Positions 776 through 48,062 are shown, numbered from the stretch's first letter. The stretch: 64,000 nucleotides of DNA from Bacilli bacterium (GCA_045226015.1 JBGVBY010000013.1:28908-92907); one strand, 5' to 3'. Notes: generated from the letters alone by a model not told the origin. A program made the numbers and translations.

Positions 776-792
776 ATGGAGCAGGTGACGGG
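776..792 (-). repeat. att core (integrase-proximal copy of tRNA-Gly 3' end)
   Basis: ATGGAGCAGGTGACGGG at 776-792 vs ATGGAGCAGGCGACGGG at 47988-48004: 16/17 identical. Confidence 0.9.
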
Positions 793-923: not shown

Positions 924-2069
924 TCACGCTTTTAGTCTTTTAAGACTGCGGTTCTTACGACCACCAAGCACTCCAATCATAGCGGTCTCACGTGAGTTTA
1001 ATACGTGTGAGTATGTATCGAGTGTCATTTGTGTGCTTGAGTGCCCAAGCCTGTTAGATATGACCTTGACATCTTCCATAGTTTCGACAGTCTCAACGAG
1101 CCAACTCGCGTTGGAATGGCGCATACCGTGTGGCGTGATTTTAGGTACACCTGCAAGCGCAGCATACTTGTACATTGCATCACGTATCGCGTGGCGTGAA
1201 GTCGGTTTCTTACCACCGAAAATGAAATCGTCATCGTGCCCGTGCATGATATTTTTTAATTCTAGTAATAACTCTGTAGTCTCTTCTGTAAGTCTATTAT
1301 GGCGAATAGAGGAACAAGTCTTAGGAGTTTCGATAATCCAAGTGCCTTGACCAGTGCCCTCGACCACTTGCTGACAAATGAAGATAGTTTGCTTATCGGC
1401 ATCAAAATGTTTCCACATCAGACCTTGTAGTTCTCCAATACGACATCCAAGTTCTCCAAAGAGGATGAAGAGAGGATACCAAATCTTATCCGTTGGAATC
1501 ACATCAATGAATCGTTCGTATTCTTCACGAGTCCAGACTTCCTTTTCTTTCTTTTGCACGATATTCTCGCGTAAGTGCTTGAGCACAACATCACATATCT
1601 GGTACGTAGGTGCATCCACATATAGGTGTTTATATGCATAAGCAAGCACATCCTTAAAGCGTGTGATAACTTTGTTTTTGCGCTTAACGGAAATAGTGGA
1701 ATCGTTAACAAAACTGTTGTACCAGTCGGTAATCTTATCTTTAACAAAGACATCTTCAATTAACAGTCTTCCAAATCGTGGTAAAAGATACTTGGAATAC
1801 ACACTGGAATCAGCTCTTAAAGTTTGTAGCTTAACAGTCGTGGATCGGTCTTTCTCAACCTCGGCGATCAAATCCCTGAAGAATATCACCTGGCAATGTT
1901 TCGTATGTGCCTTAATCCACTCCTGGATAGCACGCTCAAAATCAGCATCAGCCTCGCGCTTGCTTGCATAACCACGTATAGTCACGGACTTGATTTCGTC
2001 GTTCACTCTGACTTTGGTATGAATATACCAAGTACCTCTTGCCTCATCTTTGTAAATACACCTTCTCAT
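924..2069 (-). CDS. int: Tyrosine recombinase / phage integrase
   Basis: N-terminal arm-binding-like segment (GYASKREA), catalytic motifs GCRIGEL, HGMRHS, LGHSS, TYSH; adjacent to att. Confidence 0.95.
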   Translation of the reverse strand: MRRCIYKDEARGTWYIHTKVRVNDEIKSVTIRGYASKREADADFERAIQEWIKAHTKHCQVIFFRDLIAEVEKDRSTTVKLQTLRADSSVYSKYLLPRFGRLLIEDVFVKDKITDWYNSFVNDSTISVKRKNKVITRFKDVLAYAYKHLYVDAPTYQICDVVLKHLRENIVQKKEKEVWTREEYERFIDVIPTDKIWYPLFILFGELGCRIGELQGLMWKHFDADKQTIFICQQVVEGTGQGTWIIETPKTCSSIRHNRLTEETTELLLELKNIMHGHDDDFIFGGKKPTSRHAIRDAMYKYAALAGVPKITPHGMRHSNASWLVETVETMEDVKVISNRLGHSSTQMTLDTYSHVLNSRETAMIGVLGGRKNRSLKRLKA

Positions 2070-7929: not shown

Positions 7930-8493
7930 ATGGCTGAAATCAAATTAGACCTGAATATGGATCCAGTTGAAAGACTGACAAAAGAAATTGAAGTTGAAAC
8001 TGATTCCATCTCAATTAGAATCGGACAATTCTTACTTGAAAAGTTCGCGTCTGATGAATCACTCAAGAACGCATACCTAGAGCGCAAAGTCACGCTTGCT
8101 GATGTAAGCAAGTATGTGTACACAAGAGCAGAAGATAAAGCTAAAGATTCCTCTAACTCAAGTGCTATTGCAATTAGCGATGAAGAAGTATTCGGATGGG
8201 TTATCCACTTTGTACAAGACGGTGAAGATAAAGATGTTGAAGCACTTAGAACTGGTGCTAACTCAATTACCTTAACCAAAGAAGAAGAGGCTGACCTTAG
8301 AGCAAAGGCTATGGAAGAGTTCAAACAAAAAGAACTAGAACGTCTTGAAGAAGAAAGACTCGCTAAAGAGAGAGCTGAAAAAGAAGCTGCTGAAAAAGCG
8401 GAGAAGGCTCGACTTAAAAAAATCGAAGAAGAGGAACGTAAGAGAAAGGAGAGCGGACAAATCAGTTTGTTCGACGACTTCAATGAAGAGTAA
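7930..8493 (+). CDS. PcfK-like / AcrIIA9-related family protein
   Basis: FLLEKFASDESLKNAY..KVTLADVSKYV..AIAISDEEVFGWVIHF and C-terminal GQISLFD; upstream of PcfJ-like gene. Confidence 0.6.
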   Translation: MAEIKLDLNMDPVERLTKEIEVETDSISIRIGQFLLEKFASDESLKNAYLERKVTLADVSKYVYTRAEDKAKDSSNSSAIAISDEEVFGWVIHFVQDGEDKDVEALRTGANSITLTKEEEADLRAKAMEEFKQKELERLEEERLAKERAEKEAAEKAEKARLKKIEEEERKRKESGQISLFDDFNEE

Positions 8494-9766
8494 TAACATT
8501 TACGACTTTGTCAGTCATCTCCAAAGAGCGTCAAGAACTATTTATGTCAGAACGTTAGATGTCGATGACGAAGAAGGCATTGAGATTACTACTTGGGCAG
8601 TTCGATTCAATAAGAAAGATGCTGAACCTAAATTCAAGAAAGCATTTATTCAAAGCGAAACTCGAACTCGAATGAATAGTGACTTCTACTTTGCTCCTCA
8701 ATGTGGCTGGCGAGTTATCTGGGAAAGAAAATACAGCGCTTATTTTGGTGAAGTTCATCCAGAAGATACTCTTTACGAAGGCGATTACAAAGTGCCACAT
8801 CCGTGGTGTGAATACCTATTCGACATAGATAACGTTCACGAGTTGATTCCAGAAACTAAATACTTCAAAGACTTGCCTTTAGAAAGTTTGATCGAATTCA
8901 TCCAAAAGTGGAGAAAGAACAAAGAAATCGAATTCATTTATAAAAATGACAAGACTCAACACCTTTGGAGCGATACTCGAATCTTCAAGCTCACTAAGGA
9001 AAAGCAAAAGAAAGTTCTTCCTTTGCTCAAGCAGGGATACTCGCTCAATGATGCTCTCGGAATCCTTAAATATGGTTCAGAGCAAGCGATGATATTTCAA
9101 AGAAAGTGCCAAGAAACTAAAAAAGTGCTTAAGAAACACAAATTCTCGAAAGAACTCGTTGAAGATATCACTCGCTACTTAATTAAACAATCAGCTGATG
9201 TTTGGACTTATGAAGACTATCTCAACGATTGCAAATACTTCAAACGAAGATTAACTGCTCGTGGTTGCCTATTTCCAAGAGATTTCAAATCCGCTCACGA
9301 TAATCTAGCTCGAATGGTTAGAGAAGAAGAACGCTTGAAATGGGAAAGACAAGAGGCAAAACGCGAAGCCCACGAACAAATGATCCTCGGAAAGTTTGAA
9401 AAGAAATCGTTGGAACTCGCGAATCTATTAAAAGACTTCCTGGGAATTAGTAAAGAGAATCTAACAATCTTTCTTCCAATGACTAAAAAAGACCTAATTG
9501 ACATAGGTGAAAAGTTAGAAATCTGTGTTGGTGGTGCTGGTTACGACTTAAAAGTTATTAACGGAACTTCCATCATCATTGCAGTTTATATGGATGACCA
9601 ACCGCTTGAATGCTGTGAATTAAGGCATAAAAGAGGTGGTGGTCTCCGAATAGAACAATTACGTGGTGCCAATAACCAAGACAGTGAAAGGCATCAAGAG
9701 TGCAAAGAATTAGTAGACACATTCATTCACGCTTACTCAAGCACTCAAACAATGGCACGAGCCTAG
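8483..9766 (+). CDS. PcfJ-like domain protein
   Basis: YEDYLNDC...LFPRDFKSAHD...P....DL..IGEKLEICVG..Y...Q.RGANN pattern. Confidence 0.75.
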   Translation: MKSNNIYDFVSHLQRASRTIYVRTLDVDDEEGIEITTWAVRFNKKDAEPKFKKAFIQSETRTRMNSDFYFAPQCGWRVIWERKYSAYFGEVHPEDTLYEGDYKVPHPWCEYLFDIDNVHELIPETKYFKDLPLESLIEFIQKWRKNKEIEFIYKNDKTQHLWSDTRIFKLTKEKQKKVLPLLKQGYSLNDALGILKYGSEQAMIFQRKCQETKKVLKKHKFSKELVEDITRYLIKQSADVWTYEDYLNDCKYFKRRLTARGCLFPRDFKSAHDNLARMVREEERLKWERQEAKREAHEQMILGKFEKKSLELANLLKDFLGISKENLTIFLPMTKKDLIDIGEKLEICVGGAGYDLKVINGTSIIIAVYMDDQPLECCELRHKRGGGLRIEQLRGANNQDSERHQECKELVDTFIHAYSSTQTMARA

Positions 9767-36875: not shown

Positions 36876-38126
36876 CTAGTCAGAGACTGCGTTAGCAGCA
36901 ACGAGTGTAACTGCAGAAGCGCTCTTCTTGACTTGGACAAAGATAGTTGCATCTGCTGCTGTACCTTGGACGATATCAACACCAACGAATGATCCAGTTG
37001 TCCAAACTGTTGAAGCTAAGTGGTAACCACTACCTGCTTTAGCAGTGACTTTGAGTAATGCGCCAGGAGCAACATTACCAATCACTTCGATTTCAGCAAT
37101 GTTTGTACCTTTTGTTAAGGTTGGAGTGATTAAACCAGATGCGCTGCGGTAATCAGTTCTTGAAGCATCAGTAACTGGGCTACCAACTGCGGAACCATAA
37201 CACTCATATCTAACGAGAGCTTCGTCTCTTAACACTCTGGTAGCAAAGCCATCGTGTTTCCAAGCGAGAGAGCCACGTTGATTTAATGGGTCACTGGAAC
37301 CTGAGGAACCAGGTGCCTTATAGATGATATCGAATCCGCCAGCGGCATCTTCACCATCAATGGCAACAGCACCAAACGCTTCTTTACCAAATGCTAAGCA
37401 GCAGTGGACGTTTGTGCTTGGGTTTGGACACTCGTTAGAAACGATGAAACGGAATCCGCCATAAGCGCCAATTTCGCCTTTTTCGATTTTAACTGTGTCT
37501 CTGTATTTTTCGATGTCGGTTAAGGATCCACTAGATGTATCACCACGGACATCAGCTTCGATTTCTGGTGGAATTACAAATCTGTAATAACCATCTTCGA
37601 ATGGTTCAACGCCTCTACGTTTGAAGTATGCTTTGATTTGATTCACATCGGAGAGATGGAAATTGTAAGTAGCGCTGGACAAACCTGCTCTGTTTACTGC
37701 ACCATTAGCATATTTAACGTTTAATCCGTTGAAGATTTTTTGGCATAATAAGCCTCTCATTCTATTTCTAGCGTTCTTACCAAGTAATTTGCCAGAGATA
37801 GCGAGTTGCTTATCAAGACCGTATTTAAGCATCTTGTCGGTTAATGGAACAAAGTTACCTTCTTGGTAAGCCTTGACCATGAAATCGACTAAGGAATACT
37901 TAAGACCAGCAGGTGTAACACCTTCAATCAAGTGATCTGTGGTGTCTGGGAGATCTTTATACATTCTCCAAGAGTATTCATCACTTGTTGGGTCGTAATT
38001 AACTTTTTCTGCGTGTTTGAAGAAGACATCTTCTTTTAATTCGTCTAATTCATACATCACAACTTTTTGTGTGAACTCTTTTTGTTCTTGTGAAAGTTCA
38101 CTGGATGTCATTTTGACTTCGTTCAT
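36876..38126 (-). CDS. Major capsid protein, N4-gp56-like family, with C-terminal extra beta domain
   Basis: FFKHAE.......R.Y..L......LIEGVTP.G, GEIG.YGGFRFIVS, G.SDPLNQRGS..WK motifs. Confidence 0.85.
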   Translation of the reverse strand: MNEVKMTSSELSQEQKEFTQKVVMYELDELKEDVFFKHAEKVNYDPTSDEYSWRMYKDLPDTTDHLIEGVTPAGLKYSLVDFMVKAYQEGNFVPLTDKMLKYGLDKQLAISGKLLGKNARNRMRGLLCQKIFNGLNVKYANGAVNRAGLSSATYNFHLSDVNQIKAYFKRRGVEPFEDGYYRFVIPPEIEADVRGDTSSGSLTDIEKYRDTVKIEKGEIGAYGGFRFIVSNECPNPSTNVHCCLAFGKEAFGAVAIDGEDAAGGFDIIYKAPGSSGSSDPLNQRGSLAWKHDGFATRVLRDEALVRYECYGSAVGSPVTDASRTDYRSASGLITPTLTKGTNIAEIEVIGNVAPGALLKVTAKAGSGYHLASTVWTTGSFVGVDIVQGTAADATIFVQVKKSASAVTLVAANAVSD

Positions 38127-38143
38127 GATTTAGTCCTTCTTTC

Positions 38144-38938
38144 TTATGAGATTTTTATTTTCCCTTTGGACACTCCATCATAGTATTGAGCGAATTCTTC
38201 GTTAGTCATCTCTGATATCTTCTTATGAGGAACTTCACGTTCATCATTAGATGCACTACCAGGATTTGAGATTTTTTTAGCAGCTTCTTTCTTACCTTCG
38301 GTTCCTTTTGGATATGCGCTATCAAACTTAGCAATAATTGTCTTTAGAGGAACTGAACCTAGTAAGCCTTCAGCGAACGCTTGGAATTTTGGATCTTTCC
38401 AATATCCCTGCAGCTCTTCCTGTGTATGACCTTCATCAAGATAGTCTTTGACTTCTTGGTCTGCTCTATCACGGTCTTTCTGTTCTTGAGTCTTATTTCT
38501 CTCAAGTTCTTCAACCTTCTTAGCAGCAAGTTCACGTCTTACTTTCTCGATTTCAAGAGGATTTTTTGGGTCTAGTCCACGCGAATTAACTTCGTCTTGG
38601 AGTTCATAGAACTCATAGTCCTCATCGGTCTCTATAGGAGCATTGTCACTATAAGGGTTTTTTCCACCGACAGACTTGATACGAGCACGTTTATAGCCTT
38701 CAGCATCGCCTGCAGCCTTAGCTTTGGCAACGTCACGTTCATGTCTAATTTTAGCGAACTTGGCATCTTCTTCTTTGGACTGAGTCTCGTCAGGTTTATC
38801 TGAGTCTACAACATCAGTTGAAGTGCCTTCAGTTTTGCCCTCTTCTTTAGGTGAATTAGAAGAGTCGACAGTGTCTTCAGCAGGTTTAGAAGTTTCTTCT
38901 TTACCTTCTTCAACAACATTAGTTTCTTTTGTTTCCAT
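38144..38938 (-). CDS. Capsid scaffolding protein
   Basis: Acidic disordered N-terminus, helical core, C-terminal ISEMTNEEFAQY; between portal and capsid. Confidence 0.75.
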   Translation of the reverse strand: METKETNVVEEGKEETSKPAEDTVDSSNSPKEEGKTEGTSTDVVDSDKPDETQSKEEDAKFAKIRHERDVAKAKAAGDAEGYKRARIKSVGGKNPYSDNAPIETDEDYEFYELQDEVNSRGLDPKNPLEIEKVRRELAAKKVEELERNKTQEQKDRDRADQEVKDYLDEGHTQEELQGYWKDPKFQAFAEGLLGSVPLKTIIAKFDSAYPKGTEGKKEAAKKISNPGSASNDEREVPHKKISEMTNEEFAQYYDGVSKGKIKIS

Positions 38939-39044
38939 TTTTGTCCTTTCTAGACCACTACAATGGTAGTGACTCCACATTTACGCTGCGTGGGTGCGAA
39001 TTTTATTAAACTCAATTAGTTCAAGATTTTTGAACAAATGAGGT

Positions 39045-41156
39045 TTAATCCTTTTTAGACATTTCTTCTGCGGAAGGTAGTCCAGAACCACCTTGTCCCT
39101 CTTTGAGACGTTTAATTTCTTCATCTCTATTGGTGACCATTTCTTTAGCGGCTCCCAGAGATTCATTGAAGGATTTACGCATACTTTGATTGACTGCTTC
39201 TTTTTGAGCGGCAAGCGCTTCGAGTTGTTTAACTCTAGATAATGCCATTTGAAGCATTCCGGTCATTTCTTGAATTTGTTGTTTTAATTGGAAATTCTCG
39301 GATTTTCTTTGTTTAGCAATTAAGACACGGATATCTGCTTTCTTGGATTCAGACATGAGTGGATTTAAGTTCAACCACATTTCGAATGAATCTGGAGACA
39401 TCTTTTCATAACCACCATTTAAGAAGAGGTTATTGATTAAGTCAGTGTCGATAATTTCACTGTACTTAGTGCCTTTGCCTGGCTCACAAATGATATCGAA
39501 GATGTGACCTCTAAGTTCTTCTTCAGGATTGATCTTCCTACGTTGAACTTTGGTTGGCTCACCTTTTCTCTTTGCAGCCTCTTTAGCTGGGATTTGAGTA
39601 CCATCCTCAAGAGTAATTGGTTCATCAGAATTTAGAGCTTCTTTATAGGCTTCTTGTTCTTCTTGGTACTCTGCATCAGTTAACTCATATAAGTAGTAAC
39701 TTTCAGGATAGTAGTGTTTGTAGAATTGAAGTCTGATTTCCGCACAGTCGACTAAGAATCTCCAGTAACGGTTTTGTAATACTTCAATACGTTTATTTCT
39801 TTGTTCTTCTAAGATTTGTAACGCATACGCGGTAACATCTTTTAAGTTAGAAGAAGAATCAACGAGTTCATTGGTTCCGGTAATCATCTTTGTAATATCA
39901 ATGATAGATGTCACATAATTCATTACTTGACCATTTAATTGGTTGCCTTCGAGACGCTTGATACCAAAGTTATTTCCTGGAGTGTAATCCACGAAGATTC
40001 CACCAGGTGCTCCAGTCCAAGTTTGTCCGTTAGCAGCGCCTTCTTTCATAATAATGGTTGCCCAAGCTGTATCTTGAATCTCTTTAGCGACCATTGAGAT
40101 TATGAAGTTGATAATCTTTTGATTATCTTGGATGTTTTCAATCACTGAACGCCCATATAAGCACTTTCTACGAGGAATGAGAGATAACGCGGCAATTGGA
40201 TATAAAGAGAATTTCTCTTTTTCTTCAGTGTGTTTCTCTTCGCTTGAATCTTCTAAGTCTTCATCTTGGAAGGTTGGAACTTCAGGATCGAGTTCGTATA
40301 TTTCAATATCATCAGGTGAATATCCATTTTTCTCGGCTTCATCTTTGATTTTGAGTTTCTTTTCAGTAAGGTTTGGATTTAATGAAATTGGATCACAGAG
40401 TTGAACAGTTCTAGTTGAACGAGTCCAATAGACTTCTCCTTCGATTCTAAAGAAACGAGTAAGAACGGAACAAAGTCCGCTATCCATTAAATCTTTATCT
40501 GTATCATATTTTTCTTTATTAGATGTATAGTCGTCAGGAACGATGAGAGAGATGATTTTGTCATAATCTTTCATGTTTTTAGATACTGTTGCTCTAACAG
40601 CCTTGACTTCCATTCTCTTTTCAAAACCAACCCATTTTTGTTTTTGAATAGAGTCTAATCTAGGATTAGCACATCTAAAATCTTCTAAAGCGATAACATC
40701 TAGTGCCATTGAGCCTTTTTGTTTGCCTCTAATAGTGGTGACGTCATCACTCCAGTAGTGGTATAAAAAGCCAGTTGCACCAACCAGTGAATCTCTAACA
40801 ACGTCATCGCAGTATTGATTCATCTTGATAGATTTTTGTACATATTCATCAAATTTCTTTAATCCATCAGTTGACATATTTTTGTCAAAACAAGTGAAAT
40901 TCAATGTGACTGTGGTGCCTAAGATGGTCGCGTGTTGAGAATCAACAACCCAACCACAAATGTTTTCTGTTGCGCGCGGCATATCATCATCAAAATTTTG
41001 AGTTTGACGACCTTCGTACATCGCCCACCATTCAGGGATACAGGCTGAAAAACCTTTGTTCTCCATGTAGTTTTGATGTTTTTCAAAAAGAATCGCATCA
41101 ATCGATTTTTGATTTTCAATACTCTTAGTTGGAACTGGTTTTTTAGTATTGCTCAT
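39045..41156 (-). CDS. Portal protein (podoviral type)
   Basis: 703 aa, WWAMYEGRQ, between terminase and scaffold, C-terminal coiled coil. Confidence 0.8.
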   Translation of the reverse strand: MSNTKKPVPTKSIENQKSIDAILFEKHQNYMENKGFSACIPEWWAMYEGRQTQNFDDDMPRATENICGWVVDSQHATILGTTVTLNFTCFDKNMSTDGLKKFDEYVQKSIKMNQYCDDVVRDSLVGATGFLYHYWSDDVTTIRGKQKGSMALDVIALEDFRCANPRLDSIQKQKWVGFEKRMEVKAVRATVSKNMKDYDKIISLIVPDDYTSNKEKYDTDKDLMDSGLCSVLTRFFRIEGEVYWTRSTRTVQLCDPISLNPNLTEKKLKIKDEAEKNGYSPDDIEIYELDPEVPTFQDEDLEDSSEEKHTEEKEKFSLYPIAALSLIPRRKCLYGRSVIENIQDNQKIINFIISMVAKEIQDTAWATIIMKEGAANGQTWTGAPGGIFVDYTPGNNFGIKRLEGNQLNGQVMNYVTSIIDITKMITGTNELVDSSSNLKDVTAYALQILEEQRNKRIEVLQNRYWRFLVDCAEIRLQFYKHYYPESYYLYELTDAEYQEEQEAYKEALNSDEPITLEDGTQIPAKEAAKRKGEPTKVQRRKINPEEELRGHIFDIICEPGKGTKYSEIIDTDLINNLFLNGGYEKMSPDSFEMWLNLNPLMSESKKADIRVLIAKQRKSENFQLKQQIQEMTGMLQMALSRVKQLEALAAQKEAVNQSMRKSFNESLGAAKEMVTNRDEEIKRLKEGQGGSGLPSAEEMSKKD

Positions 41157-41475
41157 TTATGTGACTCCCTTGGAAAAGATACGCTTCCATATTCTTTTTG
41201 ACGTTGGTCTGATTTTTAACCACTTCGTTATGGATATTGACCGCAATTTGATTAAGTTCTTTCTTAATTTCTTTGCGCATTTCTTCCTTAAATCCTTCAA
41301 ACGAAGCTTTTAAGTCGGAAATTTCTGATTTTAATTCAGCATTTTCGCTCTTTAAGTTGTCAAAAATGCCTTGAATTTCATCTATTTTTAGTCCAGCAAG
41401 TTCGCACATATGGAAAAATTCATTTAATTTTTTCTCATCTTTTCGCGAAATTACGATATGATTGACTTTTTCCAT
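41143..41475 (-). CDS. Hypothetical coiled-coil protein
   Basis: 110 aa, overlaps flanking genes in operon. Confidence 0.55.
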   Translation of the reverse strand: MEKVNHIVISRKDEKKLNEFFHMCELAGLKIDEIQGIFDNLKSENAELKSEISDLKASFEGFKEEMRKEIKKELNQIAVNIHNEVVKNQTNVKKNMEAYLFQGSHINEQY

Positions 41476-43238
41476 AAGCTTCCTTTCTTCTGAACTGGTT
41501 TATCAGTTCTAAGTTGCCAAGGCAATTCTGCTTGTTTAGCAACTTCTCTATTAACAGAGGTTGTTTGCTGATTAGTAGCGGCAGCAGTGTGAGCCATTGC
41601 AAGCGCCATAACCTTATCATCGTGGCACCCTTGAATCGCACCCATTATGTAGTGTCCGGTTTTTCCTATATCAAGAACCACATAAGTGAGCATTTCTTGA
41701 AGAGTTCCTTTATCAACAATTTCTTCCGGTTTTTCCCTAAACAAAGCCTTTACGCCGTTGATCATATCTTCTTTGTTAGAGCCTTGAGTGGAAATACCAT
41801 ACTTAGTAAGGACATCTTCTTCATATCCTTGTTGGTCTTGACCAACGAAGATTTTTCTATACCCACATTTAGCAAGTGTTTTGTTAGTGGATTGTCCACG
41901 GTTGTTTTCAACCGCTATTAACGCTGTGTTGTAGTAAGTCCCTAAGCAGTACATATAGAGCCCAAGTTCATCAGGATCCATATTTTGCTTAGAGAACACT
42001 GCAACTTGTTTTCGGCATTTTCCGTCATGTCTAATAACTTGCCCACAGTTACTGTCTTCTCCGTGAATGCTTGAAGGGTCGACTCCAAGCACATATGGAT
42101 ATCCAGGGAATGGCTCTTCATAGATAATGACGTCTCCGCCTGGGTCACTGATGAATTTAATATCACTAACCGTTATTCTCCTGTTATCAGGACTAACAAC
42201 CGATTTATATTCAAAGTGACCACGCTTTTTGTAAGTCTCTCTTTCGACTTCTTCAATCCTCTTTTGGACTTTCATCGCATTGAAGACCGAATATCCAGTA
42301 GTGAGGAACGCCTCATCTGGATAGGTAGGATTTTCTTGATGGAACATCTCTAAACCCATTGAATCAATTTGTGCTCTTCTCCACATTAGTCCTTCTACGG
42401 TCATTCCATCCGCCTCGTACTCTTTGAGTAAGGCTACTTCATCACCATAATCACCGAATCTTTGTAATTCTTCCCCGTGATATGGCATCTTATACTTATC
42501 ATTTCGATACCACGGCTCAAACCAGCCTTTTAGAGAAGAACTCTTACCGCTATAAGCGTTAATAAACAAATCTCGGTAGAAGTTCATACCTTTTGCGGTG
42601 CTTTCGATAAAAAGCATCGCATCCGGAGAGAGAGGAACAGCGGAGTTCAAAGACGCCATCGCCTCTTGTTGCTTTTTCCACATTGCGAACTCAGATGCAT
42701 GCGCCGCCCTGAGAGTGGCACCTCTAGCTAAGTCATCACTAACCGTTTCGACAGAAACCGTCGATTCATTAGTAGTGGAGAGCATATTGCCTTTACGTCC
42801 AACCGCTTGAGTTGGTTTTATCTCATCTGGAAGATGATCATAGAACCTTTGATACATTTCGAAGATTCTCTTCGTGTGATCATCCTTATCCGAGATAACT
42901 AGCGATTCTCTATAAGGACTATAAATAGTCATTGTGAAGATAATCGCGGCAATAAGGGTTGAAAACCCGATTTGTCTAGCTTTCAGCACTATGTACCTAA
43001 TTGGTCGATAATGCTTCCAGTCATCCTCTATTTGAAGATAAAACTTCAATTGCTGAGGATTCAGATGGAATTTTATAAGTGGTGTGTCCTCAATTTCTCC
43101 ATCTAGGATCTCCGTCATCAAATTTTTTGGCTTTGGTCTGATGTAGAGAAAGTTCTCTATAAAATCGAGGACTCTAATTTCGTGTGGCTTGCCTAACGAG
43201 TCAGGCACCATCACCGAGAAATTTCTACTCTTTTCCAT
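41451..43238 (-). CDS. terL: Terminase large subunit
   Basis: Walker A VLKARQIGFST, Walker B AAHASEFA, FIESTAKG, nuclease YVLGVDP and HDDKVMALAMA. Confidence 0.95.
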   Translation of the reverse strand: MEKSRNFSVMVPDSLGKPHEIRVLDFIENFLYIRPKPKNLMTEILDGEIEDTPLIKFHLNPQQLKFYLQIEDDWKHYRPIRYIVLKARQIGFSTLIAAIIFTMTIYSPYRESLVISDKDDHTKRIFEMYQRFYDHLPDEIKPTQAVGRKGNMLSTTNESTVSVETVSDDLARGATLRAAHASEFAMWKKQQEAMASLNSAVPLSPDAMLFIESTAKGMNFYRDLFINAYSGKSSSLKGWFEPWYRNDKYKMPYHGEELQRFGDYGDEVALLKEYEADGMTVEGLMWRRAQIDSMGLEMFHQENPTYPDEAFLTTGYSVFNAMKVQKRIEEVERETYKKRGHFEYKSVVSPDNRRITVSDIKFISDPGGDVIIYEEPFPGYPYVLGVDPSSIHGEDSNCGQVIRHDGKCRKQVAVFSKQNMDPDELGLYMYCLGTYYNTALIAVENNRGQSTNKTLAKCGYRKIFVGQDQQGYEEDVLTKYGISTQGSNKEDMINGVKALFREKPEEIVDKGTLQEMLTYVVLDIGKTGHYIMGAIQGCHDDKVMALAMAHTAAATNQQTTSVNREVAKQAELPWQLRTDKPVQKKGSLWKKSIIS

Positions 43239-43587: not shown

Positions 43588-44485
43588 ACACGTCCTCACC
43601 AATAAAATACACAGGTGTATAGAAAACTAATCTACCGAAACCATACTTAATCTACCTATCTAATACCAAAAACCAATGAAACAGGTTGTTTTTTCCAAAA
43701 TTTTATTTTCACGAAAACACTTTTGACACACTCACACACCCCTGAAATATATAGAAAAAGGAATCCCGTGAGCGAAAAAGAATGAAATGAAACCCTGCGA
43801 AAAGGGTCTAAAAACTGGGATGAGGGGGAATGAGCCGTGATTATATATACACGCACCCCTGGGTAAAAAGGGGTCTAGGGAGGGGGTACTTTGCCACTAG
43901 CATTCACAACAAATAGGTAGTCCTAAAGGACTAAAACCCCTGTTAATAGTTTCTACAAACTGCTCCAATCTTGCTCTTACCTTATAGGTAAATATATCAC
44001 TCTTTGTTGCTCATTTCTTGCTTGTGAGACTGTTATAGCTGCTGCTTTGGGGTTGAGATAACGATCTTGATTGTTTGAAACGCTGTGAAAAATGGGGTCA
44101 CATACTTAAGTGCATTATGCTTAAATATGATGCGCTTTTCACCCCATTTCGCTCTCTCTTGGTGTTTTCTTGGATTTCTTGCTACTAGTTGCCACTCTCT
44201 TGGTATATATAACATTCAAATCAATTAAACATTTTATGTTTATTCCAAAGAATAAGACACTTACCTACTAATACGTAGACGACATGCTTGAGCACGCAGG
44301 AAAAAAGGTCGGTGTCAACAACTTTCTTAATTGCCCTGATAACAATTTATTTAAGCATCAAAGATGCTGAAAAAAATTATTATGCTTTAATGTGCTTAAG
44401 CAGGAAGAAAGGCGTAATGCACGATTTTTTCGCTGTACATTGTAGGTGTCGAAACGGGGCAGAACCCCAAAGGAGAAAACCGACA

Positions 44486-45697
44486 ATGAAAAATTACGTA
44501 GTAATTGCAACGCTAGACGAAGACATGAATGTCTTTGCAACATTCCACAACACCAGCACTATGGATGTCCTAACAAAGTTAGGTTTCGCTGGTAATTTAT
44601 CAACAGCCACATTGTGGGATGGAACATCCCCAATGGCATATGGCACTCTCTACTATATAGAGAGCGATGTCGAAAGCGACCTTGAAACCACAATGAGAAC
44701 CCTTGGGTTCCGTAGATGTGATGCTTGCGGTGCTTGGGTCACACCACAAGACAAACGTACTGGAGCAAGCACTTGGGATGGTCGCATTAGACTTTGCCCA
44801 ACTTGCTTAGCAAGAGAAGAGCAAAACGCCAACAATTCTAAAAGAATTACCTTAGGTTCCTACCACTCAACACGTTCATTCAAAGTCTGGAACGAAGATG
44901 GCACATTAAGTGACATCTTAGCTGATGGACAATACCTTGGTATTGAAATGGAAGTCAACGGAAGAGATGTGTCTATTAGAAATAGACAATTCAAGGCAAC
45001 CGACGAGTTCTACGCTATAGCAAACCCTCGCTCACGTAAACAAGTGTTTCACTGCGAAGAAGATTGCACGGTGAAAGCAGAGTTCATTAGCAACTGTTTC
45101 ACTAAAAACTCTTTCAGAGCTTTTAACTGGGACATTTTAACCGAACAAACCAAAAAGATGGGCAACGATGAAAAATACCCAACCGTAGGTTTCCACATCC
45201 ACCTTTCCAAGACACTTCTTGGAACAGACCAAAGAGAACAAGCACTCAATTTCTTGAAATTGCAATACGTTCTCAACAAATACGAGAGTGACTTTTTCAA
45301 AGTCAGTGGTCGTAATTCTCGTAGCGAAATGAGTTATTGTGGGTTCTGGTCTTTAGACCAAATCGAAACACTCAAGAACCGTGTGTTAGCGAGCGATTCC
45401 GATGCCTGGTATTGCATGCCAAGTTCTCACAGCTACGCTCTCATTAGTTCAGGTCGCACCATTGAATTGAGAATTTGCCATTCTACGAATGACAGCGAAA
45501 GAATTAGACACACTTTAGAACTCGTTTGGAACTTAGTCGAGAACATTAAAAATGTTCGTTGGGAAAAATTATGGTGCTTAAGCCGTTTATTCAAACTAGT
45601 TCCTAGTGAAACTATGAACTACTGGAGAAATAAGGGTGCCTTCCTTAACACAATGGCAGCCGATACTCGCGGAATGAGTATCCAGGCTTCCTGCTAG
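44486..45697 (+). CDS. Putative amidoligase (COOH-NH2 ligase type 2) with Zn ribbon
   Basis: CDACG..CPTC, YLGIEMEV, EEDCTV..EFIS, TVGFHIHLS, TIELRI motifs; start refined to ATG 44486 behind AAGGAG. Confidence 0.75.
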   Translation: MKNYVVIATLDEDMNVFATFHNTSTMDVLTKLGFAGNLSTATLWDGTSPMAYGTLYYIESDVESDLETTMRTLGFRRCDACGAWVTPQDKRTGASTWDGRIRLCPTCLAREEQNANNSKRITLGSYHSTRSFKVWNEDGTLSDILADGQYLGIEMEVNGRDVSIRNRQFKATDEFYAIANPRSRKQVFHCEEDCTVKAEFISNCFTKNSFRAFNWDILTEQTKKMGNDEKYPTVGFHIHLSKTLLGTDQREQALNFLKLQYVLNKYESDFFKVSGRNSRSEMSYCGFWSLDQIETLKNRVLASDSDAWYCMPSSHSYALISSGRTIELRICHSTNDSERIRHTLELVWNLVENIKNVRWEKLWCLSRLFKLVPSETMNYWRNKGAFLNTMAADTRGMSIQASC

Positions 45698-45728
45698 AGC
45701 ACTCAAGCACGATCGGAGGTATATGACA

Positions 45729-46412
45729 ATGTGTATCGCAGTATTCAAACCAGCAGGGCAAAAAGCCCCAAGTTGGGAAACTCTTAAGCAATGCTTTAAG
45801 AGAAATCCAGATGGCGCAGGATTTATGGTCGCTATCAACGACATAGTCGTTATCCGCAAAGGATTTATGCACTACAAAGATTTCGAGAAAGCTTATAAAA
45901 GCTTCTTCAACGGTCTTCAAGACAAAGACTATTCTATAGTCTATCACTTCAGAATTGGCACTCAAGGTGGCAACGTTCCAGAACTCACTCACCCATATCC
46001 ACTCACTCGTGATTATGCAGAAATGCGTAAACTCGAAAGCGAATGCGAAATAGGTGTAGCACACAATGGGATAATATCCCTGACAAGTGACCACCGTGTG
46101 ACATCACGAAATGACAGTATGACATTTATCAGCGAATATCTTGTAGATATTATCCACGGAAATCATTATTGGTCTAAGAAACCTGAAAAAGTACGCTTAG
46201 TCAATAGACTACTTGGCAACGGATATCCAAACAAACTTGCTGTTTTATCCAAAACTGGTTTCTGTGCCTTAATAGGCAACTGGATTAAAGACAACGGCAT
46301 CTATTACTCGAATACGAGTTATGTGATACCTGATACACCTAAACGCTCAAGCACTCACAAAGTATCCACGATGACACTTGAGCAAATGACACTCTTGGGT
46401 ATGTTCGAATAG
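45729..46412 (+). CDS. Class II (Ntn) glutamine amidotransferase
   Basis: Met-Cys start with GGAGGT at 8 nt; NPDGAG, HFRIGTQG, THPY, AHNGI, DS motifs. Confidence 0.85.
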   Translation: MCIAVFKPAGQKAPSWETLKQCFKRNPDGAGFMVAINDIVVIRKGFMHYKDFEKAYKSFFNGLQDKDYSIVYHFRIGTQGGNVPELTHPYPLTRDYAEMRKLESECEIGVAHNGIISLTSDHRVTSRNDSMTFISEYLVDIIHGNHYWSKKPEKVRLVNRLLGNGYPNKLAVLSKTGFCALIGNWIKDNGIYYSNTSYVIPDTPKRSSTHKVSTMTLEQMTLLGMFE

Positions 46413-46459
46413 GGCATACCTGAAAAAGAAAAATTAAATAAAAAGAAATGGAGATAATT

Positions 46460-46756
46460 ATGAATTACACAGAAACACTTGCTTTAGCAAAAGCACAAAA
46501 CATTGATATCAGCAAACTCGCAATCGCATACGAAGTCGAGTGCTGTTACGCAGAAGGTGTTAAAACACCTAGGTTCGAAGACATCTGCAACGCAGTTTAT
46601 AACCTATGGTTAAAGACTGAACATATAGAAATCAACACTTTAGTGTTAGCACTTAAAGATGGTATCGAAAATCAAGGTTGCACATTAGATGATGTGCTCG
46701 CATATGGCGAGAGTTGGGACATGGTCATAGACCTCGCTTGCCAATGCACATACTAG
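46460..46756 (+). CDS. Small acidic hypothetical protein
   Basis: Own RBS; cassette gene. Confidence 0.6.
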   Translation: MNYTETLALAKAQNIDISKLAIAYEVECCYAEGVKTPRFEDICNAVYNLWLKTEHIEINTLVLALKDGIENQGCTLDDVLAYGESWDMVIDLACQCTY

Positions 46757-46768
46757 GAGGAACTCAAC

Positions 46769-47032
46769 ATGTTGGAACTTACAAAATCACAAAAGGCTGA
46801 CATAGTCGCCTGGGCTCTCAACTTCGGTTGGAACGACTACTTCGATAGTTGTGTATGGGTACCACACCTACATAAGTACAAATACGTTTGTGCTCAAGCA
46901 GACCACACATACTACCTATCGCAAAAGCAACTCGCTCACGATTTCGATAACACATTCACAAGCGATGAACGTGAGCAATTCACATCAGATTACTTTAACT
47001 ACCAAAACGAACTTAAGAAAAGAGGAATTTAA
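46769..47032 (+). CDS. Small hypothetical protein
   Basis: AGGAGG RBS; aromatic-rich. Confidence 0.6.
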   Translation: MLELTKSQKADIVAWALNFGWNDYFDSCVWVPHLHKYKYVCAQADHTYYLSQKQLAHDFDNTFTSDEREQFTSDYFNYQNELKKRGI

Positions 47033-47034
47033 CA

Positions 47035-47427
47035 ATGTTAACCGCAAGACAAATTTTATTAACACTCAACGCCAAATTTAATGGAAATTGGGACAAAATC
47101 TATCACGCAATCGTAAATAAATGCGATGCACCTACTCAAGCAGACTATGATATGTACGCAAAAGATGGGAACTTTGACAATTTAATTACTATCATTGATA
47201 GTGATTATCCAGCAGCCAGGAGAAACACTTACAAGCCTGCATTCGTCATCAAGCGTGACGCTCTCACATATGGCGTGTTCTATCACTATGGTGATACAGG
47301 CGAAGAAGATTTATGTATGGTGTTCGCAACGGAAGCTGAAGCCAAATCTCAAGCTCGACTGTTCGACAATCACGTACCTAGCGACTGTGCAGAACAAGGC
47401 GATTATTATTACGCAAAGGCAATTTAG
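47035..47427 (+). CDS. Protein with N-terminus resembling DprA/Smf N-terminal region, no Rossmann core
   Basis: ILL.L..KF.GNWDKIY.AI....LITIIDSDYP......YKPAFVI. Confidence 0.55.
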   Translation: MLTARQILLTLNAKFNGNWDKIYHAIVNKCDAPTQADYDMYAKDGNFDNLITIIDSDYPAARRNTYKPAFVIKRDALTYGVFYHYGDTGEEDLCMVFATEAEAKSQARLFDNHVPSDCAEQGDYYYAKAI

Positions 47428-47436
47428 GAGACAAAT

Positions 47437-47568
47437 ATGGAACGATTAACTATTCGAGAACAACTCAAATTCTACATCCAGTGGTGTTTAGACAACCACT
47501 TGGAACCACAAAATGCGCATAACTTGGTCGCATACATCCAAGAAATACGCTTGAGCACTCAAGCATAG
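47437..47568 (+). CDS. Small hypothetical protein (43 aa, not in ORF track)
   Basis: AGGAG RBS; MERLTIREQLKFYIQWCLDNHLEPQNAHNLVAYIQEIRLSTQA. Confidence 0.5.
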   Translation: MERLTIREQLKFYIQWCLDNHLEPQNAHNLVAYIQEIRLSTQA

Positions 47569-47579
47569 GAGACACACAT

Positions 47580-47828
47580 ATGACACGCTATTACATTATT
47601 GACCTCATCGCAGAGGATGAAGATGAATACATCTGGGAAACAGATGAAAATGACTTTTATGACCAAATGGAAGATAACTACCAAATTGCCAATGATGAAG
47701 GCGATAGAGTGCCTGACCACGAGCAAATGATGAAGGCATACGCTAGCGAAGGAAATCACGAAGAGGCGTTCAACGCATTTAGTTTCCTCAAGTTAACGGA
47801 TATGACACCTCAAGAGTGGGGTTATTGA
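47580..47828 (+). CDS. Very acidic small protein (23 D/E, 4 K/R in 82 aa)
   Basis: AGGAG RBS; composition counted from translation. Confidence 0.6.
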   Translation: MTRYYIIDLIAEDEDEYIWETDENDFYDQMEDNYQIANDEGDRVPDHEQMMKAYASEGNHEEAFNAFSFLKLTDMTPQEWGY

Positions 47829-47870
47829 TATACACAAGTATATACGTAAGTAGTATGTGCTTAAGCAGAG

Positions 47871-47899
47871 GCGATCGATTAAATTCGGTTGCTTTTTTT
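47871..47899 (+). terminator. Terminator of the accessory cassette
   Basis: GCGATCGA-TTAAAT-TCGGTTGC stem (G-U pairs) followed by T7. Confidence 0.7.
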
Positions 47900-47953
47900 A
47901 TTGAAATCGACCAATTTTCGCTCATTTTTAGCCCACAGGCACTTGAAAACAAT

Positions 47954-47978
47954 AAAAAACCCAGATATAATCTGGGTT
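47954..47978 (-). terminator. Phage-supplied terminator downstream of tRNA-Gly
   Basis: AACCCAGAT-ATA-ATCTGGGTT hairpin with U-tract on minus strand, 10 nt past the CCA end. Confidence 0.7.
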
Positions 47979-47987
47979 AGTGTTTAG

Positions 47988-48004
47988 ATGGAGCAGGCGA
48001 CGGG
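47988..48004 (-). repeat. att core within tRNA-Gly 3' end
   Basis: Matches 776-792 at 16/17 positions. Confidence 0.9.
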
Positions 48005-48062
48005 AATCGAACCCGCGTAATCAGCTTGGAAGGCTGATGCTCTACCATTAAACTACACCTGC
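47989..48062 (-). tRNA. tRNA-Gly (TCC)
   Basis: 74 nt cloverleaf GCAGGTG...TCAGC-CTTCCAA-GCTGA...GGTTCGATTCC..CGCCTGC-TCCA with encoded CCA. Confidence 0.97.

What the first reader, a model, noticed from the sequence alone, without database searches (positions are those of the whole stretch)
47035..47427. Phage-encoded DprA N-terminal mimic
Seen: the first ~72 aa (ILLTLNAKFNGNWDKIYHAI...LITIIDSDYP.....YKPAFVI) closely follow the N-terminal pattern I recall for DprA/Smf in Mollicutes- and Erysipelotrichia-like Bacilli (ILLYF.LKY.GDWDKIY.AL...ITI.D..YP..L..IYKPPFVL). The ssDNA-binding Rossmann core is absent and replaced by an unrelated ~55-aa tail. Inference: a captured host fragment could act as a dominant-negative or decoy of DprA, blocking transformation-driven prophage curing, RecA loading or a DprA-based defence. 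It also hints at the host lineage.
Basis: partly seen in the sequence, partly recalled or inferred. Interest (0 to 1): 0.62.

Follow-up and report, generated by a model that had tools for sequence, protein, structure and literature searches.

The report
Phage stand-alone DprA N-terminal module
A prophage gene encodes only the first ~72 residues of the bacterial DNA-uptake protein DprA plus an unrelated tail; it belongs to an undescribed, selectively maintained family of phage proteins that may let phages interfere with DprA-dependent transformation.

Summary
ORF 47035-47427 (+, 130 aa) is a real gene 560 nt from attR of a 47-kb prophage integrated in tRNA-Gly. Residues 1-72 are homologous to the N-terminal module of Bacilli/Mollicutes-type DprA (hhalign 98.9%, E 1e-17; family profile 99.7%, E 7e-27). 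The alignment stops exactly at residue 72. The Rossmann/SLOG core is absent and the 58-aa tail has no detectable relatives.

It is not a one-off fragment. An exhaustive HMMER scan found ~55 distinct short proteins (67-200 aa) with the same module, cut at the same 'PPFV' boundary and carrying absent or unrelated tails. Every context examined was phage- or mobile-element-like. Comparison with a 96.6%-identical contig gives dN/dS 0.027, with module and tail both constrained.

It was not captured from the present host: 29% identity to the host's DprA against 45-52% to phage-borne relatives. Phages carry a graded series (intact DprA, degenerate-core DprA-like, internally deleted forms, module only), which suggests reductive evolution of a phage-borne dprA.

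The function is untested. The ssDNA, RecA and dimerisation surfaces are missing, so classical dominant-negative heterodimerisation is unlikely. A decoy for whatever binds DprA's N-terminal module is my leading inference (about 35-40%).

The parts
47035..47427 (+). Gene for the 130-aa stand-alone DprA-N protein (stop codon included)
   Evidence: ORF list and sequence. dN/dS 0.027 against the 96.6%-identical contig L039, 16 synonymous to 2 nonsynonymous changes, p 7e-10.
47035..47250 (+). Residues 1-72: DprA N-terminal module. It has three helices (the SAM-position subdomain), then strand beta1 (ITIID), the DYP loop and the start of beta2 (KPAFVI).
   Evidence: hhalign 98.9%, E 1.3e-17, to DprA 4-73. 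Family profile against DprA profile: 99.7%, E 7e-27. AF2 pLDDT 92-98. Same secondary-structure order as the host DprA model. Per-column conservation correlates with cellular DprA, rho 0.72.
47251..47424 (+). Residues 73-130: lineage-specific tail, predicted beta-beta-alpha at lower confidence, with no detectable homologues
   Evidence: The DprA alignment stops at residue 72. Tails of family members are mutually unrelated. pLDDT is 52-83. The tail is still constrained: 6 synonymous to 0 nonsynonymous changes, p 8e-5.
47021..47026 (+). Shine-Dalgarno-like AGAGGA, 8 nt before the ATG. The stop codon of the upstream gene ends at 47032.
   Evidence: Read directly from the sequence.
44288..47828 (+). 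Accessory cassette of seven tightly packed + strand genes, transcribed divergently from the terminase operon. It contains an amidoligase-like gene, a 229-aa gene, three small ORFs flanking the DprA-N gene, and a final 82-aa ORF.
   Evidence: ORF list. Pfam and PHROG hits. Only the DprA-N gene is shared with the equivalent cassettes of other phages.
47867..47896 (+). Terminator-like hairpin with a T-run after the last cassette gene
   Evidence: Consensus scan. This is a pattern match only.
47988..48004 (.). attR core (ATGGAGCAGGCGACGGG), overlapping the 3' end of tRNA-Gly(TCC) at 47989-48062 (-)
   Evidence: ARAGORN. It is a 16/17-nt direct repeat of 776-792.
776..792 (.). attL core (ATGGAGCAGGTGACGGG), next to the integrase gene at 924-2069 (-)
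   Evidence: Repeat search. Phage_integrase Pfam hit.
36876..43238 (-). Prophage packaging and head genes (major head protein, portal, large terminase) that establish the phage context
   Evidence: PHROG hits phrog_1357, phrog_156 and phrog_2.

Best explanation
What is shown: the ORF is a functional accessory gene of a temperate phage. It encodes a stand-alone copy of the N-terminal module of Bacilli/Mollicutes-type DprA. That module is the SAM-position three-helix subdomain plus the first strand, the YP loop and the start of the second strand of the DprA fold. It is followed by a lineage-specific tail. The gene belongs to a previously unnamed family of short phage proteins that all end their DprA similarity at the same 'PPFV' boundary.

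What is inferred about origin: the family probably arose by reductive evolution of phage-borne DprA-like genes, through core degeneration, internal deletion and truncation. It was not captured from the current host.

What is inferred about mechanism: the protein keeps every invariant residue of the module but lacks the GSR, SGxAxGxD and FPxRNR ssDNA-binding core and the C-terminal dimerisation and RecA-contact region. It therefore cannot load RecA or pair with DprA in the usual tail-to-tail way. Most likely it occupies whatever partner normally binds the N-terminal module of DprA. Candidates are a regulator (as with ComE~P in pneumococcus), a component of the uptake/translocation complex, or DNA. 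That would uncouple host DprA from the partner and dampen DprA-dependent processing of incoming ssDNA, and so reduce transformation-mediated deletion of the prophage.

My odds: identity and functionality about 0.95; phage-borne origin about 0.7; decoy mechanism about 0.35-0.4.
For: Homology. The module is predicted confidently and matches the host DprA secondary structure. The host DprA model superposes on pneumococcal DprA 3UQZ over 266 columns but on SAM-less H. pylori DprA over ~216, which places the module as the SAM-equivalent subdomain plus beta1-beta2.

Family: 127 hits at E<=1e-3 in 1.84 billion representatives. About 55 are short proteins without the DprA continuation.

Phage context of short members:
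- L012/L013: TerL phrog_2 and portal phrog_156, as in the window, with the gene in the same divergent cassette.
- L009-L011: portal and major head protein; protein P0125 is identical on 24 contigs.
- L014/L015.
- IMG/VR viral contigs L025 and L028.

Selection: dN/dS 0.027, with module and tail each significant. The same columns are conserved as in cellular DprA, rho 0.72. Module invariants are kept at 7-8 of 8 in nearly all the relatives tabulated, while core motifs decay.

Origin:
- The closest full-length relatives, P0126 and P0127, sit in phage-like contexts.
- P0200 is 90% identical to the MGE-borne DprA-like P0283 through residue 69 and then diverges.
- P0157 is a module-DUF3846-like fusion, while P0126 is followed by a separate DUF3846 gene.
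- Intact, degenerate and module-only forms all occur on viral contigs.

Plausibility of a target: the host has one DprA, RecA and a ComEC-like gene.

Literature: MGEs are selected to block transformation ('chromosomal curing'), and one pneumococcal prophage suppresses competence by raising DprA levels (PMC12637031; PMC11472951).
Against: - No interaction or phenotype was tested, and the partner of the DprA N-terminal module in these bacteria is unknown.
- The host lacks CoiA, its ComEC match is weak (27.8 bits, cut-off 23), and whether it is naturally transformable is unknown.
- Foldseek found no significant structural neighbour for the ORF model, so the structural argument rests on predicted secondary structure.
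- Retention of the module alongside a decayed core also occurs in a chromosomal Mollicutes DprA. The module may therefore have a positive function of its own that phages simply use rather than block.
- The module includes two strands that in full DprA belong to the Rossmann sheet, so its free-standing surface may differ from that in DprA.
Confidence: 0.4

Rival explanations
1. Positive adaptor for phage DNA metabolism. In both DprA and phage DprA-like proteins the module is a docking domain for SSB, RecA, a RecT/YqaJ-type recombinase or the DNA entry machinery. The stand-alone form then recruits or regulates that partner for the phage's own replication, recombination or genome entry, rather than inhibiting the host.
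For: Phages carry full-length DprA, proposed to act as an extra ssDNA-binding or recombination protein (PMC7824862; intact-core DprA on viral contig L024). This prophage and L012 both encode RecT-type recombination modules. The module is retained when the core decays, even in a chromosomal Mollicutes copy, which suggests an autonomous activity.
Against: The gene lies in a variable accessory cassette next to att and the terminase, not in the recombination module. Many members are bare ~75-aa modules with nothing to recruit a partner to. No co-variation with RecT was tested.
Confidence: 0.25
2. Small nucleic-acid-binding protein or regulator. The three-helix plus beta-hairpin module binds DNA by itself, in a SAM/HhH-like or winged-helix-like way. 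It would act as a phage transcriptional or DNA-structure regulator unrelated to the DprA pathway.
For: The best (non-significant) Foldseek neighbours of the ORF model are winged-helix DNA binders: Fur, Lrp/AsnC, MarR and RTP. The conserved basic residues R5, K29 and K63 are shared by the family and by DprA.
Against: All of those fold matches have E >= 0.3 and TM about 0.2. No HTH profile matches. In the literature the ssDNA-binding motifs of DprA map to the Rossmann core, not to the N-terminal domain (PMC9769556; PMC12961424).
Confidence: 0.15
3. Counter-defence against DprA-like immune proteins. The module binds or mimics the N-terminal domain of defence antitoxins such as ShosA or PsyrA to disarm those systems.
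For: ShosA and PsyrA are DprA-like and carry a SAM domain (PMC12961424). The host DprA scores on the PADLOC ShosA/PsyrA models through general family similarity.
Against: The host genome (95% complete) has a single DprA-like gene, located between rnhB and topA with no PRTase toxin partner. The ORF and the short member P0125 have no PADLOC hit. Neutralising an antitoxin would trigger rather than prevent abortive infection.
Confidence: 0.05
4. Non-functional remnant: a pseudogene-like stump left by decay of a phage dprA gene, or a fragment recently captured from the present host.
For: At least one family member (P0200) looks like a recent truncation of an MGE-borne DprA-like gene. The tails are unrelated between members.
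Against: dN/dS is 0.027, with the tail itself at 6 synonymous to 0 nonsynonymous changes. The gene has an intact start and ribosome-binding site in a packed operon. Dozens of diverged members (25-52% identity to the ORF) keep the same invariant residues. There are no frameshifted core remnants. Identity to the host's own DprA is only 29%.
Confidence: 0.03

Closest known systems
DprA/Smf recombination-mediator protein (Pfam PF02481 DNA_processg_A; structures 3UQZ S. pneumoniae, 3MAJ R. palustris, 4LJK H. pylori)
   Same: Residues 1-72 are homologous and colinear with the N-terminal ~73 residues of Bacilli/Mollicutes-type DprA. They keep its invariant residues (G17, W19, T52, D55, Y58-P59, P68, F70-V71) and its predicted secondary structure.
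   Different: The ORF has no Rossmann/SLOG core, no GSR, SGxAxGxD or FPxRNR motifs, and no C-terminal dimerisation or RecA-contact region. It gets no PF02481 hit, is 130 aa rather than ~260, and is phage-encoded.
Phage-borne full-length DprA / DprA-like proteins (phrog_4299, phrog_30500, phrog_768 'DprA-like DNA recombination-mediator protein'; DprA of jumbo phages, PMC7824862)
   Same: They are the closest sequence relatives of the ORF's module (P0126 49% and P0127 45% identity). They sit in similar phage accessory regions and are the probable ancestors.
   Different: They retain a Rossmann-size body, intact or degenerate. The ORF and its family retain only the module. Neither the ORF nor the three short relatives scanned (P0122, P0123, P0125) matched any DprA-like PHROG.
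SAM domain of pneumococcal DprA as competence shut-off element, and prophage manipulation of DprA levels (Kwun et al. 2025, PMC12637031)
   Same: Both concern the non-recombination, regulatory side of DprA, and both show prophages exploiting DprA to suppress transformation. The first three helices of the module occupy the SAM position.
   Different: No sequence similarity to the pneumococcal SAM region is detectable: the profile alignment to 3UQZ starts only at the beta1 region. The pneumococcal prophage raises host DprA rather than encoding a piece of it. No ComE-type partner was sought in this host.
Other MGE-encoded inhibitors of natural transformation: the C. jejuni prophage and V. cholerae ICE DNases, the Legionella plasmid sRNA RocRp, and insertions into com genes
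   Same: They share the proposed selective logic, that a mobile element protects itself from chromosomal curing (PMC11472951; PMC12637031).
   Different: Those act by degrading DNA, silencing mRNAs or disrupting genes. A protein fragment that mimics part of DprA has not been described in the papers found.
ShosA / PsyrA DprA-like antitoxins of anti-phage systems (PDB 8ZVA, 9VZO)
   Same: They belong to the same superfamily as DprA and have a SAM plus DprA-fold architecture.
   Different: They are full-length, need ssDNA binding, dimerisation and RecA binding, and are encoded with a PRTase toxin. The ORF has none of these features and no PADLOC hit.

Membership tests
DprA/Smf (PF02481 DNA_processg_A) | Scores above the Pfam gathering threshold on the DNA_processg_A model | tested here: not met
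   No Pfam hit even at E<=10. The host DprA scores 216.7 bits.
DprA/Smf (PF02481 DNA_processg_A) | Rossmann/SLOG core with the ssDNA-binding motifs (G-S/T-R loop, SGxAxGxD, FPxRNR) | tested here: not met
   Alignment to the DprA profile ends at residue 72. No core remnant in any frame of 46400-47990.
DprA/Smf (PF02481 DNA_processg_A) | C-terminal dimerisation and RecA-interaction surface | tested here: not met
   The region is absent, because the protein ends 58 residues after the module with an unrelated tail. Residue locations are taken from the literature (PMC9769556).
DprA/Smf (PF02481 DNA_processg_A) | N-terminal module (helical subdomain plus beta1, YP loop, beta2) homologous to DprA | tested here: met
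   hhalign 98.9%, E 1.3e-17. Family against family: 99.7%, E 7e-27. Whole-genome and 60-relative searches.
Stand-alone DprA-N phage proteins (unnamed family defined here) | A ~70-aa module ending at the P-P-F-V boundary with no DprA continuation (no FYYGD...VVGSR) | tested here: met
   Motif classification of 127 hits. The ORF continues IKRDALTYG... after KPAFV.
Stand-alone DprA-N phage proteins (unnamed family defined here) | Encoded in phage or mobile-element genomes | tested here: met
   Window prophage with att sites, integrase, TerL, portal and major head protein. Other members lie in L009-L015, L025 and L028. Only about 8 of ~55 members had their context examined.
Stand-alone DprA-N phage proteins (unnamed family defined here) | Maintained by purifying selection | tested here: met
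   dN/dS 0.027 for the window gene against L039. Conservation profile shared across 42 members. Tested by dN/dS for this member only.
SAM (sterile alpha motif) domain, as assigned to the DprA N-termini in 3UQZ and 3MAJ | Five-helix SAM fold | tested here: inconclusive
   The ORF model has three helices before beta1. Foldseek lists 3UQZ only at rank 7, E 1.8. The host DprA model aligns with 3UQZ over its full length. The sequence profile does not reach the 3UQZ SAM region.
ShosA / PsyrA defence antitoxins | PADLOC model match and an adjacent PRTase or RecQ-PRTase toxin | tested here: not met
   No PADLOC hit for the ORF or its cassette neighbours.
Transformation inhibitor (functional class) | Reduces transformation frequency or binds a competence protein | not testable with these tools
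   Needs experiments or complex prediction. Only single-chain prediction was available.

The most novel reading that the evidence does not exclude
Phages of small-genome Bacilli, Erysipelotrichia-like bacteria and Mollicutes carry a widespread family of protein inhibitors of the recombination mediator DprA. These would be miniaturised DprA N-terminal modules that titrate DprA's partner and so block natural transformation, protecting prophages from chromosomal curing. This would be the first protein mimic aimed at DprA. It would also assign a separable function to the DprA N-terminal domain outside streptococci.
Probability: 0.3. Interest if true: 0.8.

Novelty: new variant of a known kind. Interest (0 to 1): 0.62.

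Why it matters
DprA is the near-universal loader of RecA on transforming DNA, yet outside the pneumococcal competence shut-off the role of its N-terminal domain is poorly defined. Here that domain, and only that domain, has been repeatedly kept by phages as a free-standing, strongly constrained protein while the DNA-binding core is discarded. This says the module has a function of its own. It also supplies a natural minimal construct with which to find its partner.

If the partner belongs to the transformation pathway, these proteins would be a new class of weapon in the documented conflict between mobile elements and natural transformation. So far that conflict is known to involve DNases, small RNAs, gene disruption and altered DprA levels.

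The family has no Pfam, NCBIfam, PHROG or PADLOC model, so it is currently invisible to annotation.

Tried and rejected
- **Profile libraries on the ORF.** Pfam, NCBIfam and PADLOC gave no hit, and PHROGs gave only a non-significant one (phrog_9656, E 0.2). The homology became visible only through pairwise, genome-wide and profile-profile comparison.
- **PDB sequence search with the ORF.** Only a chance match to a viral L protein.
- **Foldseek of the ORF model against PDB and BFVD.** Nothing significant. The winged-helix-like top hits are too weak to use.
- **tblastn against INPHARED phages.** No match.
- **The search for related loci.** The ORF found no relatives in viral, genome or metagenome contigs. 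A degenerate DNA pattern did work.
- **The word-indexed homologue search with the family profile.** It was swamped by ~227-aa DprA-like proteins.
- **Hypothesis: a degenerate core marks phage-borne copies.** Rejected, because P0210 (1 of 14 core residues) is chromosomal in a Mollicute.
- **Hypothesis: the tail is a diverged or frameshifted piece of the DprA core.** No support. BLAST's 'FYHYGD/FYYGD' match is not backed by the profile.
- **Hypothesis: the tails form a second conserved domain.** Rejected, since only one pair of tails is related.
- **Hypothesis: the cassette is conserved as a unit.** Rejected, since only the DprA-N gene is shared.
- **Tree of the module, to count independent truncations.** Unresolved (71 columns, 2 well-supported branches). 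It shows only that short forms cluster more than chance.

Full report
**1. The observation**

The ORF exists as described: 47035..47427 on the + strand, 130 aa, ATG start. An AGAGGA ribosome-binding site lies 8 nt upstream, and the stop codon of the preceding gene ends 2 nt before the ATG.

No curated library recognises the protein. Pfam and NCBIfam gave nothing, PHROGs gave only a non-significant match (E 0.2), and PADLOC gave nothing.

The claimed resemblance to DprA is nevertheless real.
- The host assembly (1.17 Mb, 22 contigs, 95% complete) has one DprA gene, on another contig (L001:1369-2169). It sits in the classical GTPase-rnhB-dprA-topA arrangement.
- BLASTP of the ORF against this DprA gives 31.6 bits, E 2e-6, colinear over ORF 16-87 and DprA 20-79.
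- A six-frame search of the whole host genome with the ORF finds the DprA N-terminus as its only non-self hit.
- Against a profile of 60 DprAs of the host's relatives (A1), the ORF scores 98.9% probability, E 1.3e-17. It aligns residues 1-72 to DprA 4-73 and stops there.
- In 60 related genomes the ORF hits exactly one locus in each of 41, and two loci in one more. Every hit lies in a 251-299-aa frame, consistent with the resident DprA, and nearly all end at query residue ~72.

The Rossmann core is absent, and no frameshifted remnant of it exists in 46400-47990.

**2. What the module corresponds to**

AlphaFold2 predicts residues 1-75 with pLDDT 92-98. The elements are H4-14, H19-28, H35-44, E50-52, H60-63 and E71-73. 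The tail is weaker (pLDDT 52-83) and reads beta-beta-alpha.

The host DprA model (pLDDT 95.5) begins with the same six elements and then continues into the Rossmann fold. It superposes on pneumococcal DprA 3UQZ over 266 columns (TM 0.80). On SAM-less H. pylori DprA it superposes over only ~216 columns. The sequence profile aligns to H. pylori DprA from its residue 12 onwards, at the 'YP..L....PP.L' segment.

So the phage module is the SAM-position helical subdomain plus strand beta1, the YP loop and the start of beta2 of the DprA fold. It is cut before beta3 and the GSR ssDNA-binding loop. Motif positions follow PMC9769556.

Foldseek with the ORF model itself found nothing significant in PDB or BFVD. 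The case for homology therefore rests on sequence profiles.

**3. Genomic setting**

The window holds a ~47.2-kb prophage. Its ends are a 16/17-nt direct repeat of the 3' end of tRNA-Gly(TCC): attL at 776-792 and attR at 47988-48004.

Its genes, in order:
- integrase (924-2069, -)
- CI-like repressor
- YqaJ, DUF1351 and RecT
- a PcfJ-like gene
- a long minus-strand structural block with major head protein, portal and large terminase

The ORF is the fifth of seven tightly packed genes in a + strand cassette (44288-47828). The cassette is transcribed divergently from the terminase operon and ends in a terminator-like hairpin (47867-47896), about 90 nt before attR.

To the right lie ordinary host genes: thioredoxin, TraX-like and a CAAX protease.

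**4. It belongs to a family**

An exhaustive phmmer scan of 1.84 billion cluster representatives gave 127 hits at E<=1e-3, all matching ORF residues ~1-72.

Fifty-one are 215-282-aa DprA-type proteins matched at their N-terminus. About 55 are short proteins of 67-201 aa. These carry the module and then either stop within a few residues (for example ...KPPFVIKKER, 73 aa...KPPFVIKRSKQA, 77 aa) or continue into diverse tails. In contrast, DprA fragments continue 'FVLFYYGD.SLL..VVGSR'.

A profile of 43 short proteins matches the DprA profile at 99.7% probability, E 7e-27, over DprA 3-79 only. The tails are mutually unrelated, except for one pair.

Per-column conservation in the short family tracks that in cellular DprA (Spearman 0.72, p 3e-12). 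The same residues are fixed in both: R5, G17, W19, Y23, K29, T52, D55, Y58-P59, K63 and P68-P-F-V.

**5. The family is phage-borne**

Every context I could retrieve is phage- or MGE-like.
- **P0157** (201 aa) lies in a phage with TerL phrog_2 and portal phrog_156, as in the window. Its gene is in the equivalent divergent cassette. TerL and portal are only 33% and 27% identical to the window's, and no other cassette gene is shared.
- **P0125** (77 aa) is identical on 24 contigs of up to 61 kb that carry portal and major-head genes.
- **P0123** lies among dozens of small ORFs with a GP88-family gene.
- **P0137** needs TGA=W.
- **P0200** lies between PcfJ-like genes.

One narrow degenerate DNA pattern found six IMG/VR viral contigs of 47-131 kb. 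One has an intact-core DprA, three have full-size proteins with a degenerate core, and two have module-only genes.

**6. It is under selection**

A metagenomic contig (L039) is 96.6% identical over 1222 nt and has the same gene order. Within the ORF there are 16 synonymous and 2 nonsynonymous differences.
- Whole ORF: dN/dS 0.027, binomial p 7e-10.
- Module: 10 synonymous to 2 nonsynonymous, p 4e-6.
- Tail: 6 synonymous to 0 nonsynonymous, p 8e-5.

**7. Origin**

The module is only 29% identical to the present host's DprA. It is up to 48% identical to DprAs of other families in the same order and 45-52% identical to relatives in phages.

The closest full-size relatives, P0126 and P0127, lie in phage-like gene arrays. 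P0283, a 231-aa DprA-like protein, lies next to a PcfJ gene on a 144-kb contig. P0200 is 90% identical to P0283 through residue 69 and then diverges abruptly. That is a recent truncation at the same boundary.

P0126 is followed by a separate DUF3846 gene, whereas P0157 is a fusion of the module to a DUF3846-like tail. This suggests deletion of the core.

A census of invariant residues shows the eight module invariants kept at 7-8 of 8 in nearly all relatives, while the 14 core-motif residues score 0-7 in most. There are also 170-212-aa forms that have lost the middle of the core.

I first took core decay to be a phage signature, but that is wrong. P0210 (1 of 14) is chromosomal in a TGA=W Mollicute, at the rnhB-ssb-dprA position.

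A tree of the 71 alignable columns is unresolved. It shows only that short forms cluster more than chance (15 label changes against 34 expected). The number of independent truncations remains open.

**8. Mechanism**

What is shown:
- The protein keeps the DprA N-module.
- It lacks the ssDNA-binding core.
- It lacks the region that the literature assigns to dimerisation and RecA contact (PMC9769556; the same requirements hold for ShosA, PMC12961424).

It follows that the protein cannot act as a recombination mediator. It also cannot poison DprA through the canonical tail-to-tail dimer.

What is inferred: the most economical role for a free, strongly conserved copy of a docking-type domain is competition for that domain's partner. 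The host has DprA, RecA and a ComEC-like gene but no CoiA. Its transformability is unknown.

The evolutionary logic has precedent. Transformation can delete prophages. MGEs counter it with DNases, sRNAs and insertions into com genes. One pneumococcal prophage suppresses competence by raising DprA, which also represses competence (PMC11472951; PMC12637031; PMC12378983).

No paper I could find describes a phage-encoded DprA fragment.

Two rivals remain open: a positive adaptor role in phage DNA metabolism, and a DNA-binding regulator. The ShosA/PsyrA counter-defence idea and the pseudogene idea are disfavoured.

**9. Verdict**

Relative to known systems this is a new variant of a known kind. It is a derivative of the DprA family that none of the four profile libraries searched here recognises.

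Earlier notes of this scan on the same prophage agree on the phage context and on the amidoligase/GATase pair at the head of the cassette. Notes from other genomes describe the opposite truncation, core-only 'mini-DprA' proteins. I used none of these notes as evidence.

Noticed in passing
window 44288-46412: The cassette that holds the DprA-N gene starts with an Amidoligase_2-like protein (E 6.7e-4, below the Pfam cut-off; phrog_16683). It is followed by a 229-aa protein beginning M-T-M-C-I-A, which looks like an N-terminal-cysteine amidotransferase by eye (phrog_25883, function unknown). The true start of the first gene may be the ATG near 44483 rather than the TTG at 44288.
   Followed up: partly
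L023 9001-9741 (CP012357.1, TGA=W): A chromosomal Mollicutes DprA at the canonical RNase HII-SSB-DprA position keeps most (7 of 8) of the N-module invariants but only 1 of 14 Rossmann-core motif residues. In that lineage the cellular protein itself may have lost ssDNA binding while retaining the module.
   Followed up: partly
proteins P0129, P0163, P0170, P0172, P0191, P0211, P0230, P0231 (170-212 aa): These are intermediate forms. They have the N-module plus the C-terminal end of DprA ('PTS.PS.NN.LIKEGA.L.DS'), with the middle of the Rossmann core deleted. Their contexts were not examined.
   Followed up: no
L019 9001-10141 and L012 10001-10606: A 250-aa phage DprA-like gene is immediately followed by a DUF3846 gene. 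In another phage the DprA N-module is fused to a DUF3846-like tail (Pfam weak; phrog_34491). This suggests a functional link, or a deletion that fused the two genes.
   Followed up: partly
window 8345-9766; L018 4244-6622; L005 22-1515 and 2786-3895: PcfJ-like genes recur near DprA-like and DprA-N genes, both in this prophage and in two other elements.
   Followed up: no
L019 12288-13790: A Cpn60/GroEL-family chaperonin gene lies in the phage-like contig that carries the DprA-like protein P0126.
   Followed up: no
window 43602-44288: A non-coding stretch of about 690 nt (up to ~880 nt if the first cassette gene starts near 44483) separates the divergent terminase operon from the accessory cassette. 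It may hold divergent promoters or the packaging site. The promoter scan was no better than shuffled sequence.
   Followed up: no
host genome G000 (C3:42255-42698; whole genome): The ComEC-like match is weak (27.8 bits, cut-off 23) and no CoiA was found, although DprA and RecA are intact. Whether this 1.17-Mb organism is transformable is unclear.
   Followed up: partly
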